From Escherichia coli (GTDB taxonomy: Bacteria > Pseudomonadota > Gammaproteobacteria > Enterobacterales > Enterobacteriaceae), in NCBI RefSeq assembly GCF_003018235.1, contig NZ_CP027437.1: 64,000 nt of DNA. The stretch is one strand, 5' to 3'. Made by a program: the position numbers. This document shows positions 42,001-54,000 of the stretch, in pieces; the stretch's first letter is position 1; each line of letters opens with the position of its first letter.

Positions 42001-45000
42001 TACATCGCGTTGGGTCTTTGGTTTCGAAAAATATTCCATTCATTAAGGCTGATATCAACGATAAACAAAAGCTTGAAGAAGTTTTTAAAAACTACGATAT
42101 TGATGCAGTGATTCATTTTGCAGGTTTAAAATCTGTTGGTGAATCAGTAAAGAAACCACTGGAATATTACATTAATAATGTCAGTGGAACCCTTACCCTG
42201 CTTGAAGTTATGAAGCAAGCAAATGTTTACAAATTCATTTTTAGTTCGTCTGCGACTGTTTATGGTAATCATTCTCCGGTTCCCAATCTGGAGGAATATC
42301 CTATTGGAAATGCTTCATGCCCCTATGGAACTACTAAAGTCATGCTGGAGCAGGTTTTATCAGACTATGCGAAGTCAGATGATAAATTAAAAATTATTGC
42401 TCTGCGTTATTTTAATCCTACAGGTGCGCATCCTAGTGGTCTTATTGGGGAGGACCCGAACGGCATTCCAAACAATCTTGTTCCTTATATTTCTCAGGTT
42501 GCTATTGGCAAATTAGAAAAACTGTCCGTTTATGGTGGCGATTATGAAACTATTGATGGAACAGGAGTACGCGACTTTATCCATGTGGTAGATCTTGCCG
42601 CAGGCCATGTTAGTGCTTTAAGGTATATTGATAAATTACAAGGATATGACATTTTTAATCTTGGTACTGGCACTGGTGTATCAGTTTTACAAGTAATCGA
42701 TGCCTTTGAAAAAGCAAGTAATCAGAAAGTTAATTATGAAATTGTCGCCAGACGTGAGGGCGATATAGGATCTTCTTGGGCTGATGTATCTAAAGCAGAA
42801 AGGATTTTAGGCTGGAAATCCAAGTACAATATTGAAGATATGATGGTCCATACCTGGAATTGGCAAAAACAAAACCCTAATGGCTATGGAAGTTAGTACC
42901 TATTGATTTAATATTATAATGGCGTATCAATGAATTTATTTTTCATAGTCGATAAGTTGGATTGGGCATTCGGTAGAATAGCTCAAAATATAGCAACAGA
43001 ATTAAGTAGCTTTAATGTAAAAATAGTTTGCACCGATGATTTTAAAACTGTGGCAGACTTTGCTATGCACATGGATAAAAACGTAAAAGAAAAGAGTATA
43101 TTACACTTCTTTTGGCGTGATTATCTTATGGAAGTGATGAACTTCACTCAGCGGAATCCCCAATATAAAGAAATTTTGATCAGAAATATTATCACAACGC
43201 ATATTCCTGATCATCTTTTTACTTATGATGATATCGCAAACTATGAGAGAAGAATTCCTCTTATGAATTTTGTGGATGGGTATTTTGTTACATCCGGAAA
43301 ATTGAAAGAGCTATATTCTGAACTGTCTGATTTTCCGCCTCCTCATAGCGTTATCTATGATAATCCAGAAATTCCTATGAGCGAGGTAAAAAGCTATGAT
43401 AATCATGATAGAAAAAAAATCGTATGGATTGGCAATAGTAAATGGGGAGAATACCTCGGTTACCAAGATTATAAAGGCCTGAATACAATAGTTTTGCCGG
43501 CTCTAGATAAATTAAAAAAATCTGGATATACATTTGATTATATTGAGTTTGATAGTTCTAAAGGCAAGACCGATCGTGAGGTAATTCTTAAAACACTTTC
43601 TGATGCAGATATTCTACTGATCAGTTCGAAATGTGAAGGTACACCATTGCCACTTCTTGAAGCAATGGCAAACAGTTGTGCTGTTGTGTCGACAGATGTT
43701 GGTATAGCAAATGAAGTATTACCTGAAAAGCAGTTACAGTATATTGTGTCTCGGGATGCAGAGGCATTTTATTATTCGTTGAAAGGTCTTCTTGACGATC
43801 AACGCGGTCTTGAAGAGTTACAAAGAATGAATTATATAGCGTATCGTCAGCAATTTGTAGATGATAGCCTTATAGGTGACAAATGGGCATTGTTCTTCAA
43901 AGATATGTGTTCAAAATCGCAAAATGAATTTAAGAATATATTCCTTCGCGAGCAGAAAATTCCATCATTTAAAGAACGATTGATATCAAAAGCTATTTAT
44001 AATCTAAGCAGACTAGCTCTTCGTTTGAATTTGATGAATACGCTAAAACAATATAGCCTGCTACGAAAAATATATTATAAGGTTGCAGGAACAACTACAA
44101 ATCAAGTTGATTATGATTTGTTGGATGAATTTTATAGTAATGCAATATCAGATAAAGAAGTATTAGCATTTTACTCTGCATATTGGTCTGGTGTTGCCAC
44201 ATCAACAGCTAGTTTCTTTAAAGATGATAGTATCCAATATCCATATTATTCATATGAGTTCCCACAGGTTTCTAATCATGTCTATCTAAACAGATTAGCA
44301 GAAAAACTTGCTGAATCTAAAACACTAAAAAGTGTGATCATGAGCGGTGGAACACAATTACAAATGGAACTTGCCAAAAAAATTAAGGCATTAAGTCCGA
44401 AAATAAAAATATTTTTTGCATGGCATGGTTCACCTGCTCAGTGGGTTGACTCCTCGCAATATTCAACGTTTGATGGATGGTATGAACTTTACCGAGAGCG
44501 AATTGCTGATGGGGTCATCTCGTTTAAGCCTGAGCTAGATGAAATACTCAATGCTTACGGTATTCGTGCATTCTCAGTATCGAATTATGCTGTATCAGGC
44601 TCCTCGTTTTCTAAAAAATTAGCTGCACCTGATTCTGCCAATTTCCGCGTAGGTTTGTTCGCTGCAATGTTCAGTTGGTATAAAAATCCATTTCCTCAAT
44701 TACTAGCAATTGGTTCATTAAAAGGATGTGAGCTAGTTACAAACTTGCATCTTGAACATAATATGAAGTGGGTTACTTCAAATATCAAGCTTACGACATT
44801 ATCAGAAAATTTAAATAATAAGCGGTTTATCGAACTGCTATCTCGTTTACATGTTATATGCTATGTAACGAATACGGAATGTTCGCCAATGATAGCGTTG
44901 GAATCTGCAAGTGTCGGAACTCCATGCATTGTGGGGCCAGCTGGAAACATATATAAAGGTTTTCCTGAGTTAGAATTGTATTTGGTTGAAAAAGAGGTTG

Positions 45001-51000: not shown

Positions 51001-54000
51001 AGAGTCTGCGGATTATCTTGAAAATAAATGGGGAATGGTTTTCTGGTCAGCTCCAGTTGATGATTGGTTGGAAGAGAAGCAACGTAGTTTTGAACTGATA
51101 ACTCAAAAAGAAAGTAACTATTCGCAAATTGATGATAATAAACAAAATGTCATTTGTGATTTTCCAGTAGCAAAACCGAGAATTGCATTGATTATTGATA
51201 CTGAAAACTGGGCATTCTCAAATATAGCAAATCAAATAGTCAATCATCTGTCAGATTCGTATGATTTTACAATAATACCAACTGAAATCATTGATAATAT
51301 CAGTCAGGTTATTATGATGACCAAAAATCATGATATAACTCATTTCTTCTGGCGTGAATCGCTTAGACTTATATATGATGAATGCTATATAAACTATAAC
51401 CGGGCTATTGGATTTGATGAGCTTAGTTTTAAAAAACAATACTTAGATGGAAGGATAATAACAAGTAGTGTTTATGATCATCTATTTCTTGATGAACAAG
51501 CTATAAAGTTAAGAAAAACATTTTATAATGATTTAATAACTGCTTATACAGTTAGTTCATCAAAATTATATGATATATACTCATCAATAGCCGAGTATCC
51601 TAATCCGTCAGTTCTTGCTGAAGATGGTGTCGATTTAAAACTATTTTATCCTCTCGATCTTGAACGCTTTGACAATATTGAGTCGAGAACATTGCGCGTA
51701 GGTTGGGCTGGTAATTCTAAATGGGCGGGAGAAGTAGAGGATTTTAAAGGTTACCATTCTTTATTAAAGCCAGCAGTTGAGCAATTACAATCAGAAGGAT
51801 TGAATATAGAGTTAGTCCTTGCTGATCGTCAGCTCGGATTTATTCCTCATGATGAAATGGTAAATTATTATAGCCAAATTGATGTCTATGTCTGTCCTTC
51901 AAAAATTGAGGGCACACCAAACCCTGTACTCGAATCTATGGCATGTGGCGTTCCCGTGATAAGTACTGATGTCGGTGTGGTTAATGATGCGTTTGGTGAT
52001 ATGCAAAAAGAATGGATTTTGCCAGTTAGAAGCAAGGATGTTTTGATAGATAAACTTCGGGATTTTTATAATAGGCGTAACACAGTGGTAAAATGTTTAT
52101 CTTCAGAAAATCTGCAGCAAATAAAAAAATGGGATTGGAAAGTTAAATCTGAGAACTTCCGCATTTTTTTCGACAAATTATTAGAATCTAAAAAGCACAG
52201 CAAGATAAACACTGAAATGTGATCAAAATATCATTTTAACCTTAACACAGGTTTTTTATCATTATCGTGAGTTAATAAGATCGTAGTATCTACACCTGAC
52301 AGGAGTATGTAATGTCTAAGCAACAGATCGGCGTCATCGGTATGGCAGTAATGGGGCGCAACTTGGCGCTCAATATTGAAAGCCGTGGTTATACCGTTTC
52401 CGTATTCAACCGCTCCCGTGAAAAGACCGAAGAAGTCATTGCTGAGAATCCGGATAAGAAACTGGTTCCTTATTATACGGTAAAGGAGTTTGTTGAATCA
52501 CTTGAAACTCCTCGTCGTATCCTGTTAATGGTGAAGGCGGGCGCGGGTACAGATGCTGTCATTGATTCACTTAAGCCGTATCTGGAAAAAGGTGACATCA
52601 TCATTGATGGCGGTAATACTTTCTTCCAAGATACTATTCGCCGTAACCGGGAACTATCTGCCGAAGGTTTTAATTTCATCGGCACCGGTGTGTCCGGTGG
52701 TGAAGAAGGGGCGTTGAAAGGCCCATCTATTATGCCTGGAGGTCAGAAAGAAGCGTACGAGTTAGTTGCTCCAATATTGACTAAAATCGCGGCCATTGCT
52801 GAAGATGGCGAACCGTGCGTAACTTATATCGGCGCTGATGGTGCAGGCCATTACGTGAAAATGGTCCACAACGGCATTGAGTACGGCGATATGCAGTTGA
52901 TTGCTGAAGCCTATTCTCTGCTAAAAGGTGGTCTTAACCTGTCAAACGAAGAGCTGGCAGACACTTTTACCAAGTGGAATGAAGGTGAGCTCAGCAGTTA
53001 CCTGATCGACATTACCAAAGACATTTTCACCCAAAAAGATGAAGAGGGTAAATTCCTGATCGATGTGATCTTGGATGAAGCGGCTAACAAAGGCACTGGT
53101 AAATGGACCAGTCAGAGTTCTCTGGACTTGGGCGAACCGCTATCTCTGATTACCGAATCTGTATTCGCTCGGTATATCTCCTCCCTGAAAGACCAACGCG
53201 TAGCAGCTTCTAAGGTCTTGACCGGACCTAAAGCTCAGCTTGCAGGTGACAAAGTAGAGTTTATTGAGAAAGTACGTCGTGCATTATATCTGGGGAAAAT
53301 TGTGTCTTATGCACAAGGATTCTCACAATTGCGTGCTGCATCTGATGAATATAAGTGGGATCTGCAATACGGTGAGATCGCGAAGATTTTCCGTGCTGGC
53401 TGTATCATTCGTGCACAGTTCTTGCAGAAAATCACTGATGCTTATGCTAACAATGATAAAATCGAGAACCTGCTCCTGGATCCCTACTTCAAGAATATTG
53501 CTGATGAATACCAGCAAGCTCTGCGTGATGTGGTAACCTATGCGGTACAAAATGGTATTCCTGTACCGACGTTTGGCGCAGCTGTCGCTTATTATGACAG
53601 CTACCGTGCAGCGGTACTACCGGCGAACCTAATACAGGCGCAGCGCGATTATTTTGGTGCACATACCTATAAGCGTACTGATAAAGAAGGCGTATTCCAT
53701 ACGGAATGGTTGAATTGAATAATAAATTTTCATATTGTCTATTTTAATAACAAGGCCATCTTACAGGGTGGCCTTATTGTCAGCAAAATTTCTTGCTGTA
53801 TTAAATATTTATATTATTCTATATATAAATATTCCTCATTAAAGGCATTGGTTCGAACATGCGAAAAAATATAATAATTGTAGGTGGTGGTTTTTTTGGA
53901 ATGTACCTCGCTGAGCAATTTTCTCTTTTAGGTCATGGAGTAAAGCTATTCGAAAAGGAGAATAATTATATGTCTCGAGCGTCATATAACAACCAGGCGC

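What the first reader, a model, noticed from the sequence alone, without database searches (positions are those of the whole stretch)
42930..52222. Paralogous GT-B modules shared by the 738-aa and 693-aa glycosyltransferases
The N-terminal module of ORF 42930 (ILHFFWRDYLMEV ... KKIVWIGNSKWGEYLGYQDYKGL ... SKCEGTPLPLLEAMANSCAVVSTDVGIANEVL) and the C-terminal module of ORF 50141 (ITHFFWRESLRLIY ... LRVGWAGNSKWAGEVEDFKGYHSL ... SKIEGTPNPVLESMACGVPVISTDVGVVNDAF) share a colinear series of motifs. This indicates intra-cluster domain duplication and shuffling, possibly two enzymes adding related linkages.
Basis: seen in the sequence. Interest (0 to 1): 0.45.

Follow-up and report, generated by a model that had tools for sequence, protein, structure and literature searches.

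The report
Shared glycosyltransferase module in O101/O162 polymerases
Two large sugar-adding enzymes in the E. coli O101/O162 O-antigen gene cluster really do share one distinctive catalytic module, but it is an ancient relationship inside a widespread enzyme family rather than a local duplication, and it suggests which enzyme builds which half of this clinically relevant two-block surface polysaccharide.

Summary
Observation confirmed. A738 residues 5-273 align with B693 residues 350-627 (31% identity, E 5e-35, z = 55 against shuffles). The alignment includes the N-terminal Rossmann half, where ordinary GT4 enzymes of the same window score z of about 0.

The window holds the known E. coli O89/O101/O162 ABC-transporter O-antigen cluster; A738 is werR and B693 is werT.

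The "intra-cluster duplication and shuffling" reading is not supported:
- There is no DNA similarity between the two modules.
- They were never sisters in bootstrap trees (0/200 and 0/100).
- Each has much closer relatives elsewhere. Full-length A-type proteins occur in Alpha-, Beta- and Gammaproteobacteria. All 150 listed relatives of the B-type module are closer (34-61%).

A-type genes usually stand without a B-type partner, mostly beside wzm/wzt. A methyltransferase + B-type pair is an add-on in a minority of loci, and it is the segment swapped between Escherichia and Citrobacter clusters.

Best model: A738 polymerises the PS1 block and B693 the PS2 block, with one module per linkage. The shared module is inferred to make the alpha-HexNAc-(1->4)-GalNAc bond present in both blocks. 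A published PS2-loss mutation, V497G, falls in the shared module.

This is a new member of a known kind, of moderate interest.

The parts
41880..42896 (+). galE/gne, a UDP-hexose(NAc) 4-epimerase that supplies UDP-GalNAc.
   Evidence: ORF. Annotated GalE in NCTC10973. Role as stated in PMC13168486.
42930..45146 (+). A738 (= werR), an 'A-type' two-module glycosyltransferase proposed to be the PS1 polymerase.
   Evidence: AlphaFold2 model with pLDDT 88 and pTM 0.77. Full-length orthologues of 735-770 aa in many Proteobacteria.
42930..43919 (+). A_N, the shared GT-B module (aa 1-330). Motifs: D8-x3-W12-A13, H59FFWR63, G168NSKW172, D180-x-K182-G183, and EX7E at E236...E244.
   Evidence: Pfam Glycos_transf_1 matches only aa 212-306, and no Pfam N-terminal GT4 model matches.
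43920..44159 (+). Helical inter-module linker of A738 (aa ~331-410), modelled with lower confidence.
   Evidence: helices 332-406; 10-residue block-mean pLDDT 58-65 over aa 341-390 and 79 for 391-400.
44160..45146 (+). A_C, a second and unrelated GT-B module (aa 411-738). Motifs: S472GG, H499GSPAQW505, W583-x-K585-N586, and EX7E at E650...E658.
   Evidence: Invariant columns in 64 orthologues. Pfam Glycos_transf_1 scores only 20.5 bits, below the cut-off. No PDB sequence hit. Similar to the shared module only over 88-154 C-terminal columns. A_N versus A_C gives z = 0.7.
45143..45922 (+). wzm, the ABC-transporter permease.
   Evidence: best NCBIfam match is the galactan-type permease, 241 bits, below that model's 380-bit cut-off.
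45929..46681 (+). wzt, the ABC-transporter ATPase. It is short (250 aa) and has no C-terminal carbohydrate-binding module.
   Evidence: residues 5-246 match the 244-position galactan-type Wzt model end to end at 299 bits, below that model's 400-bit cut-off.
46698..47777 (+). GT359, a canonical single-module GT4, proposed to be a primer/adaptor transferase.
   Evidence: Pfam N-terminal and C-terminal GT4 domains both match. Its counterparts vary or are absent in other A-type loci.
47787..48941 (+). GT384, a canonical single-module GT4, proposed to be a primer/adaptor transferase.
48990..50138 (+). Methyltransferase terminator: an N-terminal SAM-dependent MTase followed by a heptad-rich (coiled-coil-like) C-terminus and a terminal amphipathic helix. 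The RefSeq start is 48990; the mechanical ORF begins at 48975.
   Evidence: Pfam MTase domains at aa 37-158. C-terminal sequence. Coiled-coil description and requirement for O-methyl and PS2 from PMC13168486. Lies immediately upstream of a B-type gene in 6 of 7 contexts examined.
50141..52222 (+). B693 (= werT), a 'B-type' two-module glycosyltransferase proposed to be the PS2 polymerase.
   Evidence: AlphaFold2 pLDDT 92.9. Genetic link to PS2 in PMC13168486.
50141..51121 (+). B_N, a GT2 (GT-A fold) module covering aa 1-327. Motifs: D79NGS82, DxD at D132-N-D134, and F237EDID241.
   Evidence: Pfam PF00535 scores 51.6 bits against a cut-off of 23.3. Motifs located. Foldseek's best matches are GT-A UDP-GalNAc enzymes, ppGalNAc-T2 and human B4GALNT1.
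51122..51166 (+). Disordered linker of B693 (aa 328-342).
   Evidence: pLDDT below 50 for residues 328-342.
51167..52222 (+). B_C, the shared GT-B module (aa 343-693). Motifs: D353-x3-W357-A358, H401FFWR405, D495GVD498, G524NSKW528, and EX7E at E590...E598.
   Evidence: Foldseek matches to GT4 enzymes MshA, sucrose-phosphate synthase, SenB and GlgM.
51629..51631 (+). Codon V497 of B693, the site of the published V497G change in a strain reported to have an MT-mutant-like (PS2-lacking) LPS profile.
   Evidence: PMC13168486 supplementary file 2, 'GT4 p.V497G'. Residue and motif conservation checked (D495 is conserved in 226/234 modules).

Best explanation
The window carries the E. coli O101/O162-type ABC-transporter O-antigen cluster. 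Its product is a two-block HexNAc polymer. The core block is PS1, ->6)-a-GlcNAc-(1->4)-a-GalNAc-(1->. It is extended at the non-reducing end by PS2, ->4)-a-GalNAc-(1->4)-b-GalNAc-(1->, and capped with O-methyl.

Shown here: A738 (werR) and B693 (werT) are each two-module glycosyltransferases, and they share one distinctive GT4-like GT-B module (A_N and B_C). The relationship is an old paralogy inside a large family, not a local duplication.

Inferred mechanism, following the rule of one module per linkage:
- A738 is the autonomous PS1 polymerase. A_N makes a-GlcNAc-(1->4)-GalNAc and the unrelated A_C makes a-GalNAc-(1->6)-GlcNAc.
- B693 is the PS2 polymerase. Its GT2 module makes the inverting b-GalNAc-(1->4) bond and B_C makes a-GalNAc-(1->4)-GalNAc.
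- The shared module therefore performs the same chemistry in both enzymes: retaining transfer of a HexNAc to O4 of GalNAc.
- The single-module GT4s (GT359, GT384) build the primer/adaptor on the lipid carrier.
- The methyltransferase + B693 pair is an add-on 'second block plus cap' cassette grafted onto an A-type core system.
For: Identity of the cluster: 99.9% identical to NCTC10973 and four other genomes, with wzm and wzt annotated as O89/O101/O162 family. Polymer structures come from PMC7685785. The copolymer model, and PS2 loss on MT or werT defects, come from PMC13168486.

Homology of the modules. 31 positions are at least 90% conserved and identical in both clades, spread over both Rossmann halves.

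Architecture: AlphaFold2 gives A738 as GT-B + helical linker + GT-B (pLDDT 88) and B693 as GT-A + GT-B (pLDDT 92.9). All three GT-B modules carry EX7E, and the GT2 module carries DxD. That makes four polymerising modules, three predicted retaining and one predicted inverting (from the usual stereochemistry of GT4-like and GT2 enzymes), which matches the 3 alpha + 1 beta linkages of PS1 + PS2.

Structural neighbours: UDP-HexNAc enzymes. For A738 these are BshA, MshA, PglH (6eji), SdgB and PglA. For B693's GT-A domain they are ppGalNAc-T2 and B4GALNT1.

A-type as an autonomous core: in 18 species genomes only one (C. freundii) has MT + B-type. Ten (nine wzm-wzt-A-type loci plus Motilimonas) have A-type with wzm/wzt and no MT or B-type, and the small accessory GTs vary between loci.

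MT + B-type as a cassette: MT lies directly upstream of the B-type gene in 6 of 7 contexts. Citrobacter braakii is ~88% DNA-identical from galF into the MT gene, but only 45-46% identical in protein for MT and the last GT.

The published PS2-loss substitution V497G lies in the conserved DGVD motif of the shared module.

The one-module-per-linkage rule is established for WbdA (PMC11231755).
Against: No enzymology exists for any of these modules, so every linkage assignment is inference.

26-31% identity does not guarantee the same acceptor or regiochemistry, and the proposed donors differ (UDP-GlcNAc versus UDP-GalNAc).

A_N could instead make the a-1,6 bond. GT359 and GT384 could contribute to polymerisation.

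The trees are neighbour-joining on simple distances, the rooting is unreliable, and only the best 150 of about 20,000 family hits were sampled.

Rickettsia A-type loci have no wzm/wzt within reach.

Loss of PS2 in MT mutants could be partly a polar effect on B693, because the two genes are only 2 nt apart (my inference).

The V497G numbering is assumed to use the same start codon.

Foldseek was run on two-domain models and does not report which module matched.
Confidence: 0.6

Rival explanations
1. One reading: one module was duplicated within this cluster, fairly recently, and then shuffled onto a different partner domain.
For: The two genes lie 5 kb apart in one operon and share a full-length module.
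Against: There is no DNA similarity between the modules. They were never sisters in bootstraps (0/200, 0/100). A_N ranks 136th of 142 from B_C. All 150 listed representative proteins are closer to B_C (34-61%) than A_N is. Full-length A-type and B-type orthologues exist in other proteobacterial classes, and A/B identity is 25-31% in each locus.
Confidence: 0.03
2. Ancient in-cluster duplication: the A-type N-module and the B-type C-module arose by duplication in an ancestral locus that already held both enzymes, and they have been co-inherited as partners since.
For: The set A-type + MT + B-type + wzm/wzt occurs in Gammaproteobacteria (Escherichia, Citrobacter) and Betaproteobacteria (Alcaligenes). 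All four also occur in Brucella lupini (Alphaproteobacteria), split over two IS-bounded contigs of one assembly. Partner B-modules cluster together.
Against: Only 1 of 18 species genomes with an A-type gene also has a B-type gene nearby. The B-type module family is far larger than the A-type family (280 representatives at E<=1e-30, against 66 profile-search hits, nearly all full-length A-type) and occurs in many other architectures. The MT + B-type segment behaves as an exchangeable cassette.
Confidence: 0.2
3. Different division of labour. The two single-module GT4s (GT359, GT384) polymerise PS1 and A738 is an adaptor, bridging or chain-extension factor. Alternatively, A_N makes the a-(1->6) bond and A_C makes the a-(1->4) bond.
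For: GT359 matches the PglJ and PglH a-1,4-GalNAc-transferase models over its full length at E 3.5e-29 and 1.3e-19, far below their cut-offs. There is no biochemical assignment for any GT.
Against: A-type genes persist with wzm/wzt in loci that have no GT359 or GT384 homologue (Alcaligenes, Nitratireductor, Advenella, Candidimonas), while the small GTs vary. In characterised ABC-dependent systems the multi-module protein is the polymerase (PMC11231755).
Confidence: 0.25
4. The similarity is only the generic GT4 nucleotide-sugar-binding motif.
For: Pfam recognises only the C-terminal ~90 residues of each module.
Against: The N-halves alone score z = 22 while GT4 controls score z of about 0. Profile-profile alignment spans 319 columns at E 9e-90. 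Shared conserved positions lie throughout the module.
Confidence: 0.01

Closest known systems
WbdA multi-module mannosyltransferase polymerase with the WbdD coiled-coil terminator (E. coli O8/O9a; K. pneumoniae O3/O5)
   Same: [quoted passage not shown] Both have a polymerase with several GT modules in one polypeptide, one module per linkage. Both have a separate terminator with an N-terminal methyltransferase and a C-terminal coiled coil (PMC11231755 and PMC3482155).
   Different: The sugars here are HexNAc, not mannose. There are two polymerases making two blocks. The shared module's N-terminal half is not recognised by any Pfam GT4 N-domain model. Wzt lacks the carbohydrate-binding module that reads the cap. 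The terminator is genetically needed for the second block, not only for chain length (PMC13168486).
Klebsiella pneumoniae O1 and O2ac hybrid O antigens (WbbY/WbbZ or WbmVWX acting on an O2a galactan core)
   Same: In both, a second repeat-unit polymer is added to the non-reducing end of a core polymer by an extra polymerase. The comparison was drawn by PMC13168486. Wzm and Wzt here find the galactan-type exporter models as their best NCBIfam matches (241 and 299 bits, both below the model cut-offs of 380 and 400).
   Different: Here the add-on polymerase is encoded inside the cluster and is always paired with a methyltransferase. The GT families differ. Sequence relatedness to WbbY was not tested.
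K. pneumoniae O7 ORF6 (methyltransferase - coiled coil - two GT modules in one protein) and O12 WbbB
   Same: The order terminator - coiled coil - two polymerising GT modules is the same. The MT gene (ends 50138) and B693 (starts 50141) read like a split version of that arrangement (PMC11231755; coordinates).
   Different: Here there are two polypeptides, with GT2 + GT4-like modules instead of two GT2 modules. No kinase domain was detected, and the cap is O-methyl rather than methyl-phosphate or Kdo. This is an analogy only; homology was not tested.
Retaining GT4 HexNAc transferases with solved structures (BshA, MshA, Campylobacter PglH 6eji, PglA)
   Same: Both have the GT-B fold and the EX7E motif. 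The structural neighbours use UDP-GlcNAc or UDP-GalNAc donors, and PglH makes a-1,4-GalNAc bonds (for the matches; the NCBIfam PglH description for the linkage).
   Different: Identity is only 12-17%. PDB sequence searches match only the C-terminal motif. These are single-module enzymes. The D-x3-W-A, HFFWR and GNSKW signature was not checked in these solved GT4 structures; GT359/GT384's N-halves show no detectable similarity to the module (z~0).

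Membership tests
GT4-type retaining GT-B glycosyltransferase (Pfam Glycos_transf_1; CAZy GT4-like) | The C-terminal Rossmann domain matches PF00534 above the gathering score. | tested here: met
   For the whole proteins, A738 (match at aa 212-306, in A_N) scores 61.2 bits and B693 (match at aa 565-648, in B_C) 63.1 bits against a cut-off of 26.4; scanned as isolated modules they score 44.0 and 64.9 bits. A_C scores only 20.5 bits, below the cut-off, so A_C on its own is inconclusive by this criterion.
GT4-type retaining GT-B glycosyltransferase (Pfam Glycos_transf_1; CAZy GT4-like) | EX7E motif. | tested here: met
   E236...E244 in A_N, E590...E598 in B_C and E650...E658 in A_C. 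E244, E650, E658 and E598 are invariant in their alignments; E236 and E590 are at least 90% conserved.
GT4-type retaining GT-B glycosyltransferase (Pfam Glycos_transf_1; CAZy GT4-like) | The N-terminal domain is recognised by GT4 N-domain models (PF13439, PF13579, PF13477). | tested here: not met
   There is no hit for A_N, B_C or A_C even at E<=10. GT359 passes two of the three models (PF13439, PF13579); for GT384 none of its N-domain matches (PF13439, PF13477) reaches its cut-off. The module is best described as a GT4-like subfamily with a divergent acceptor half.
GT4-type retaining GT-B glycosyltransferase (Pfam Glycos_transf_1; CAZy GT4-like) | Two-Rossmann GT-B fold. | tested here: met
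   The AlphaFold2 models show alternating beta/alpha topology. Foldseek matches GT4 structures at probability 1.00.
GT4-type retaining GT-B glycosyltransferase (Pfam Glycos_transf_1; CAZy GT4-like) | Retention of anomeric configuration. | not testable with these tools
   This needs product analysis. It is inferred from family membership and from the three alpha linkages in PS1 and PS2.
GT2 inverting GT-A glycosyltransferase (B693 N-module) | PF00535 match, a DxD motif and the GT-A fold. | tested here: met
   PF00535 scores 51.6 bits against a cut-off of 23.3. D132-N-D134 and F237EDID241 are present. Foldseek matches GT-A GalNAc-transferases.
Multi-module ABC-transporter-dependent O-polysaccharide polymerase (WbdA-like logic) | Encoded with wzm/wzt, and two or more GT modules in one polypeptide. 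| tested here: met
Multi-module ABC-transporter-dependent O-polysaccharide polymerase (WbdA-like logic) | One GT module per linkage type of the repeat unit. | tested here: inconclusive
   The count fits: 4 modules, 3 predicted retaining (GT4-like) and 1 predicted inverting (GT2), against 3 alpha and 1 beta linkages (structures from PMC7685785). No module has been assigned experimentally.
Multi-module ABC-transporter-dependent O-polysaccharide polymerase (WbdA-like logic) | Demonstrated processive or polymerising activity. | not testable with these tools
   This requires in vitro reconstitution.
   Sisterhood was found in 0/200 and 0/100 bootstraps. Closer relatives exist outside the cluster for both modules.
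   The best blastn hit is 60% over 153 nt, E 7e-4.
Cap-dependent export system (WbdD-type terminator plus a Wzt with a carbohydrate-binding module) | Wzt carries a C-terminal carbohydrate-binding module that recognises the cap. | tested here: not met
   Wzt is 250 aa and residues 5-246 align with positions 1-241 of the 244-position galactan-type ATPase model, leaving no extra domain. This fits the reported presence of uncapped PS1-only O-antigen chains in LPS profiles (PMC13168486).

The most novel reading that the evidence does not exclude
The methyltransferase + B-type glycosyltransferase pair is a self-contained, horizontally exchangeable 'second block plus cap' cassette. It can be plugged onto autonomous A-type HexNAc polymerase/exporter systems in distant Proteobacteria. 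It comes in alternative versions, with an active GT2 partner or a motif-less GT-A remnant, that would specify different distal polymers. On this reading the shared GT-B module is what makes the two polymerases compatible, because both recognise a GalNAc-terminated chain. That would be a general, modular route to block-copolymer O-antigen diversification.
Probability: 0.3. Interest if true: 0.6.

Novelty: new member of a known kind. Interest (0 to 1): 0.4.

Why it matters
O101/O162 (mostly the 'Onovel32' variant) is a globally spread, multidrug-resistance-associated ExPEC serogroup and a vaccine target. Its PS2 block carries the immunodominant epitopes, yet none of its four glycosyltransferases has been assigned a function (PMC13168486).

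This analysis gives a concrete, testable assignment of each catalytic module to a linkage. It places a known PS2-loss mutation inside the shared module. It also shows that the second-block machinery (methyltransferase + werT) is an add-on cassette that is swapped between Escherichia and Citrobacter clusters. That helps explain antigenic variants and could guide glyco-engineering of defined PS1 or PS1-PS2 conjugates.

For enzyme classification, it defines an uncharacterised GT4-like subfamily. The subfamily has a distinctive acceptor half, is combined with several different partner domains, and has at least 280 representative clusters at E<=1e-30.

Tried and rejected
- PDB sequence searches with each module found only the generic C-terminal GT4 motif for A_N and B_C and nothing for A_C. 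No solved relative exists.
- The word-index homologue search with A_N returned only 7 hits and missed the protein's own cluster. The family became visible only through the exhaustive phmmer search and a profile built from A_C relatives.
- A literature search for 'werT'/'werR' was swamped by the German word 'Wert'.
- Plesiomonas shigelloides has an A-type orthologue, but the O-antigen cluster paper gives no polymer structure that could test the PS1 assignment.
- NCBIfam gave no equivalog for any of the four GTs; all hits were far below the cut-offs.
- Model coordinates are not exposed to scripts, so the A_N and B_C models could not be superposed.
- I considered A738 as an internal tandem duplication (A_N ~ A_C) and rejected it: z = 0.7, and the profile match covers only the C-terminal half.
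- I considered and rejected chance or generic GT4 similarity, and recent duplication (see the rival explanations).

Full report
**1. Context**

The finding lies in the low-GC block (about 34-37% GC over window 42001-52000, against about 53-56% in the colanic-acid genes from 27001-39000) between galF (40532-41437) and gnd (52312-53718), just downstream of the colanic-acid cluster. The segment 41880-52222 is 99.9% identical to E. coli NCTC10973 and to four other complete genomes. RefSeq names its wzm and wzt 'O89/O101/O162 family'. In all, 326 of 5426 complete E. coli genomes carry a related cluster, 313 of them in the 90-95% identity band (about 91% in the listed rows).

The gene order is galE, A738, wzm, wzt, GT359, GT384, methyltransferase (MT), B693, gnd.

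Published work gives the O101/O162 polymer two disaccharide units (PMC7685785):
- PS1 is ->6)-a-D-GlcNAc-(1->4)-a-D-GalNAc-(1->.
- PS2 is ->4)-a-D-GalNAc-(1->4)-b-D-GalNAc-(1->.
- O162 has an additional 4-deoxy-arabino-hexose side branch.

A 2026 study (PMC13168486) proposes a copolymer: a PS1 core extended by PS2 and capped with O-methyl. It shows that MT disruptions abolish PS2 and methylation. [quoted passage not shown]

**2.

- BLASTP aligns A738 5-273 with B693 350-627 at 31% identity, E 5e-35.
- The Smith-Waterman score is 344 against 37 +/- 5.6 for shuffles (z = 55). The N-terminal halves alone give z = 22.
- The N-halves of the cluster's ordinary GT4 enzymes (GT359, GT384) give z of about 0 against either module. 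Their BLAST matches, and those of WcaL, cover only 39-95 residues around the EX7E motif.
- Pfam sees only that C-terminal stretch in both modules. No GT4 N-domain model matches them, although GT359 passes two of those models; GT384's N-domain matches stay below cut-off.
- Profile-profile comparison of the two clades gives probability 100%, E 9e-90 over 319 columns.
- 31 positions are at least 90% conserved and identical in both clades. They include D8, W12, A13, H59, R63, D94, W166, G168, N169, S170, W172, D180, K182, G183, E236, G237, T238, P239 and E244 in A738 numbering.

**3. Architecture**

- AlphaFold2 with 54 and 64 homologues gives confident models.
- B693 has a GT-A domain (aa 1-327), a disordered linker (328-342) and a GT-B domain (343-693), with pLDDT 92.9.
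- A738 has a GT-B domain (1-330), a helical and less confident linker (332-406) and a second GT-B domain (411-737), with pLDDT 88 and pTM 0.77.
- A738's second module (A_C) has its own invariant EX7E (E650...E658), HGSPAQW and SGG motifs. It is not detectably related to the shared module beyond the nucleotide-sugar half.
- B693's GT2 module has DNGS, DxD (D132-N-D134) and FEDID motifs.
- Foldseek neighbours are UDP-HexNAc enzymes. A738 matches BshA, MshA, PglH, SdgB and PglA. B693 matches ppGalNAc-T2 and human B4GALNT1 through its GT-A domain, and MshA, sucrose-phosphate synthase and SenB through its GT-B domain.

**4. Origin: not a local duplication**

- There is no DNA similarity between the two modules.
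- An exhaustive phmmer search with B_C found 20,266 hits. Of these, 280 representatives score E<=1e-30, and all 150 listed are 34-61% identical to B_C, closer than A_N is.
- Many of these hits share the architecture of a GT2 followed by the module, at about 650-690 aa. Others carry the module alone, in tandem, or beside other domains.
- A profile of A_C relatives retrieved 66 proteins. Nearly all are full-length A-type proteins of 735-770 aa, from Salmonella, Atlantibacter, Plesiomonas, Photobacterium, Stutzerimonas, Alcaligenes, Nitratireductor, Brucella/Ochrobactrum and Rickettsiaceae. Brucella lupini is 38% identical over 727 residues.
- In neighbour-joining trees the E. coli A and B modules were never sisters (0/200 and 0/100 bootstraps). 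All 68 A-type N-modules form one clade (92/100). B693's module groups with the B-type modules of Citrobacter and Alcaligenes.
- Within every locus that has both proteins, A-versus-B identity is 25-31%. Orthologues across bacterial classes are 36-54% identical.

The paralogy is therefore ancient. An ancestral in-cluster duplication cannot be excluded, but nothing requires it.

**5. Comparative genomics: a core and an add-on**

- *Loci with both proteins.* The Alcaligenes loci have wzm, wzt, A-type, MT and B-type in that order. Citrobacter braakii and C. freundii have the same gene order as E. coli. Brucella lupini has both proteins, on two IS-bounded contigs of one assembly.
- *Species-level scan.* Only 1 of 18 genomes with an A-type gene has MT + B-type nearby. 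Nine have wzm-wzt-A-type with nothing more, and Motilimonas has A-type and wzm/wzt flanked by two GT4s. Eight Rickettsia/Rickettsiaceae loci have an epimerase, a GT384-like GT4 and the A-type gene, without a nearby exporter.
- *Other loci without a B-type.* Stutzerimonas has A-type, wzm, wzt, GT4, GT4, the E. coli order, without MT or B-type. Nitratireductor has only GT2, wzm, wzt and A-type.
- *Accessory GTs.* The small accessory GTs vary between loci (two GT4s, or one GT2), as expected for primer or adaptor enzymes.
- *MT position.* MT sits directly upstream of the B-type gene in 6 of 7 contexts.
- *The swapped segment.* Between the window and C. braakii, DNA identity is about 88% from galF into the MT gene and resumes before gnd. 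In between, MT and the last GT are only 45-46% identical in protein. That segment is the variable cassette.
- *Motif loss in the variable cassette.* In C. braakii and one Alcaligenes locus the B-type N-domain is homologous but has lost the DNGS, DxD and ED motifs.

**6. Mechanism**

Shown: there are four polymerising modules, three GT-B modules with EX7E and one GT2 with DxD, against the 3 alpha + 1 beta linkages of PS1 + PS2. The A-type gene is autonomous. B-type + MT is an add-on, and werT and MT are genetically tied to PS2 (PMC13168486).

The published change GT4 p.V497G comes from a strain that, per the paper, has an intact MT but an MT-mutant-like LPS profile. It maps to V497 in the D495-G496-V497-D498 motif of the shared module. 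D495 is conserved in 226 of 234 modules.

Inferred, using the one-module-per-linkage rule (PMC11231755):
- B_N makes b-GalNAc-(1->4).
- B_C makes a-GalNAc-(1->4)-GalNAc.
- A_N makes a-GlcNAc-(1->4)-GalNAc.
- A_C makes a-GalNAc-(1->6)-GlcNAc.
- GT359 and GT384 prime the chain.

So the shared module would do the same job in both enzymes, a retaining HexNAc transfer to O4 of GalNAc. I put about 0.8 on B693 making PS2, about 0.65 on A738 making PS1, and about 0.45-0.5 on the specific a-1,4 assignment of A_N.

Caveats:
- There is no enzymology for any module.
- Identity between the two modules is low.
- The trees are neighbour-joining only.
- MT mutations may have polar effects on B693, because the genes are 2 nt apart.

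**7. Comparison with known systems and novelty**

- *WbdA/WbdD.* The logic matches: a multi-module polymerase plus a coiled-coil methyltransferase terminator.
- *K. pneumoniae O1/O2ac.* These are also hybrid antigens, with a second polymer added onto a core.
- *K. pneumoniae O7 ORF6.* MT followed by B693 resembles a split version of this protein (MT, coiled coil, two GT modules). This is an analogy; homology was not tested.
- *Differences from those systems.* The chemistry is HexNAc. The GT4-like subfamily has an unrecognised acceptor half. Wzt has no carbohydrate-binding module. The second polymerase is encoded in the cluster and paired with MT.
- *Prior knowledge.* The cluster and the bi-modular nature of werR and werT are already published.
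- *New here.* The A_N/B_C paralogy was not found in the two papers read here (PMC7685785, PMC13168486). Also new are its family context, the core-plus-cassette organisation and the module-to-linkage proposal.
- *Verdict.* This is a new member of a known kind, with interest 0.4.

Noticed in passing
window 54996-56006 (+), stop codon at about 55077-55079: The second gene downstream of gnd is a GT2-like protein (its translation shows hydrophobic C-terminal stretches), 336 aa in NCTC10973. Here it carries a premature TAA at codon 28 (CAA in NCTC10973), the only difference in 1011 nt. Liu et al. suspect the gnd-ugd block of making the O162 4-deoxy-arabino-hexose side branch, and in the O101 type strain the first gene of the block is disrupted by an IS. 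This strain may therefore lose the side branch by a different lesion.
   Followed up: partly
window 53859-60225 (+): The gnd-ugd block encodes an FAD oxidoreductase, a GT2-like protein, an NAD(P) oxidoreductase, a sugar-phosphate isomerase/epimerase-family protein, an EmrE-like small membrane protein, a GT2 and a 456-aa hypothetical protein. From memory only, this composition recalls lipid-carrier-linked 'three-component' side-branch systems (compare the title of PMC11127046) and DprE1/DprE2-type redox epimerisation. This was not tested.
   Followed up: no
L006 7663-15879 versus L004 394-8610: The common E. coli 'Onovel32' variant (strain CPE35) is 99.84% identical over 8217 nt, from galF to most of GT384, to a Citrobacter braakii O-antigen cluster. 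The two then diverge. Onovel32's MT and last GT are 84% and 90% identical to the window, while Citrobacter's are 45% and 46%. This suggests a mosaic with a recent inter-genus exchange. 'Citrobacter' does not occur in the main text of PMC13168486.
   Followed up: partly
L006 (E. coli CPE35) and hit H12 (plasmid NZ_CP100878.1): In CPE35 the Onovel32 cluster lies between entD/ybdK and ybdF/nfsB. It is bounded by IS26 and IS903B, with wcaM truncated and only a 69-nt partial ORF remaining between the last GT and the downstream IS903B, where gnd would be expected. One related copy lies on a 91.8-kb plasmid. This suggests IS-mediated relocation or mobilisation of the whole cluster.
   Followed up: no
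window 45929-46681 (+): Wzt is only 250 aa and has no carbohydrate-binding module. Its best NCBIfam match is the galactan-type exporter ATPase (299 bits, below that model's 400-bit cut-off), even though the polymer is capped by O-methyl and the cluster encodes a coiled-coil terminator. This is unlike the cap-reading exporters of O8/O9a/O12 described in PMC11231755.
   Followed up: partly
L004 10001-10960 and L008 10001-10990: In Citrobacter braakii and one Alcaligenes locus, the B-type protein's N-domain is homologous to B693's GT2 domain but lacks the DNGS, DxD and ED motifs ('FISLNFLF' and 'LLTDHVVF' in place of 'LDNDIYF'). Pfam does not recognise it. It may be a catalytically dead or repurposed GT-A domain.
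   Followed up: partly
window 61802-63200: Between ugd (60548-61714) and hisIE, NCTC10973 annotates a frameshifted IS3-family transposase pseudogene and an IS200/IS605 fragment. No wzzB chain-length regulator is annotated there. That would fit an ABC-transporter-dependent O antigen.
   Followed up: no
L023-L029, L032, L011: Many Rickettsia and Rickettsiaceae genomes, including insect endosymbionts, encode a full-length A-type two-module glycosyltransferase (30-35% identical to A738). It sits next to a GalE-like epimerase and a GT384-like GT4, with no wzm/wzt within reach.
   Followed up: no
window 43920-44159 (A738 aa ~331-410): The inter-module linker of A738 is predicted to be all-helical, with lower confidence (10-residue block-mean pLDDT 58-65 over aa 341-390, 79 for 391-400). 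It contains nearly invariant K335 and Y382 across 64 orthologues. It could be a membrane-association or partner-docking element.
   Followed up: no
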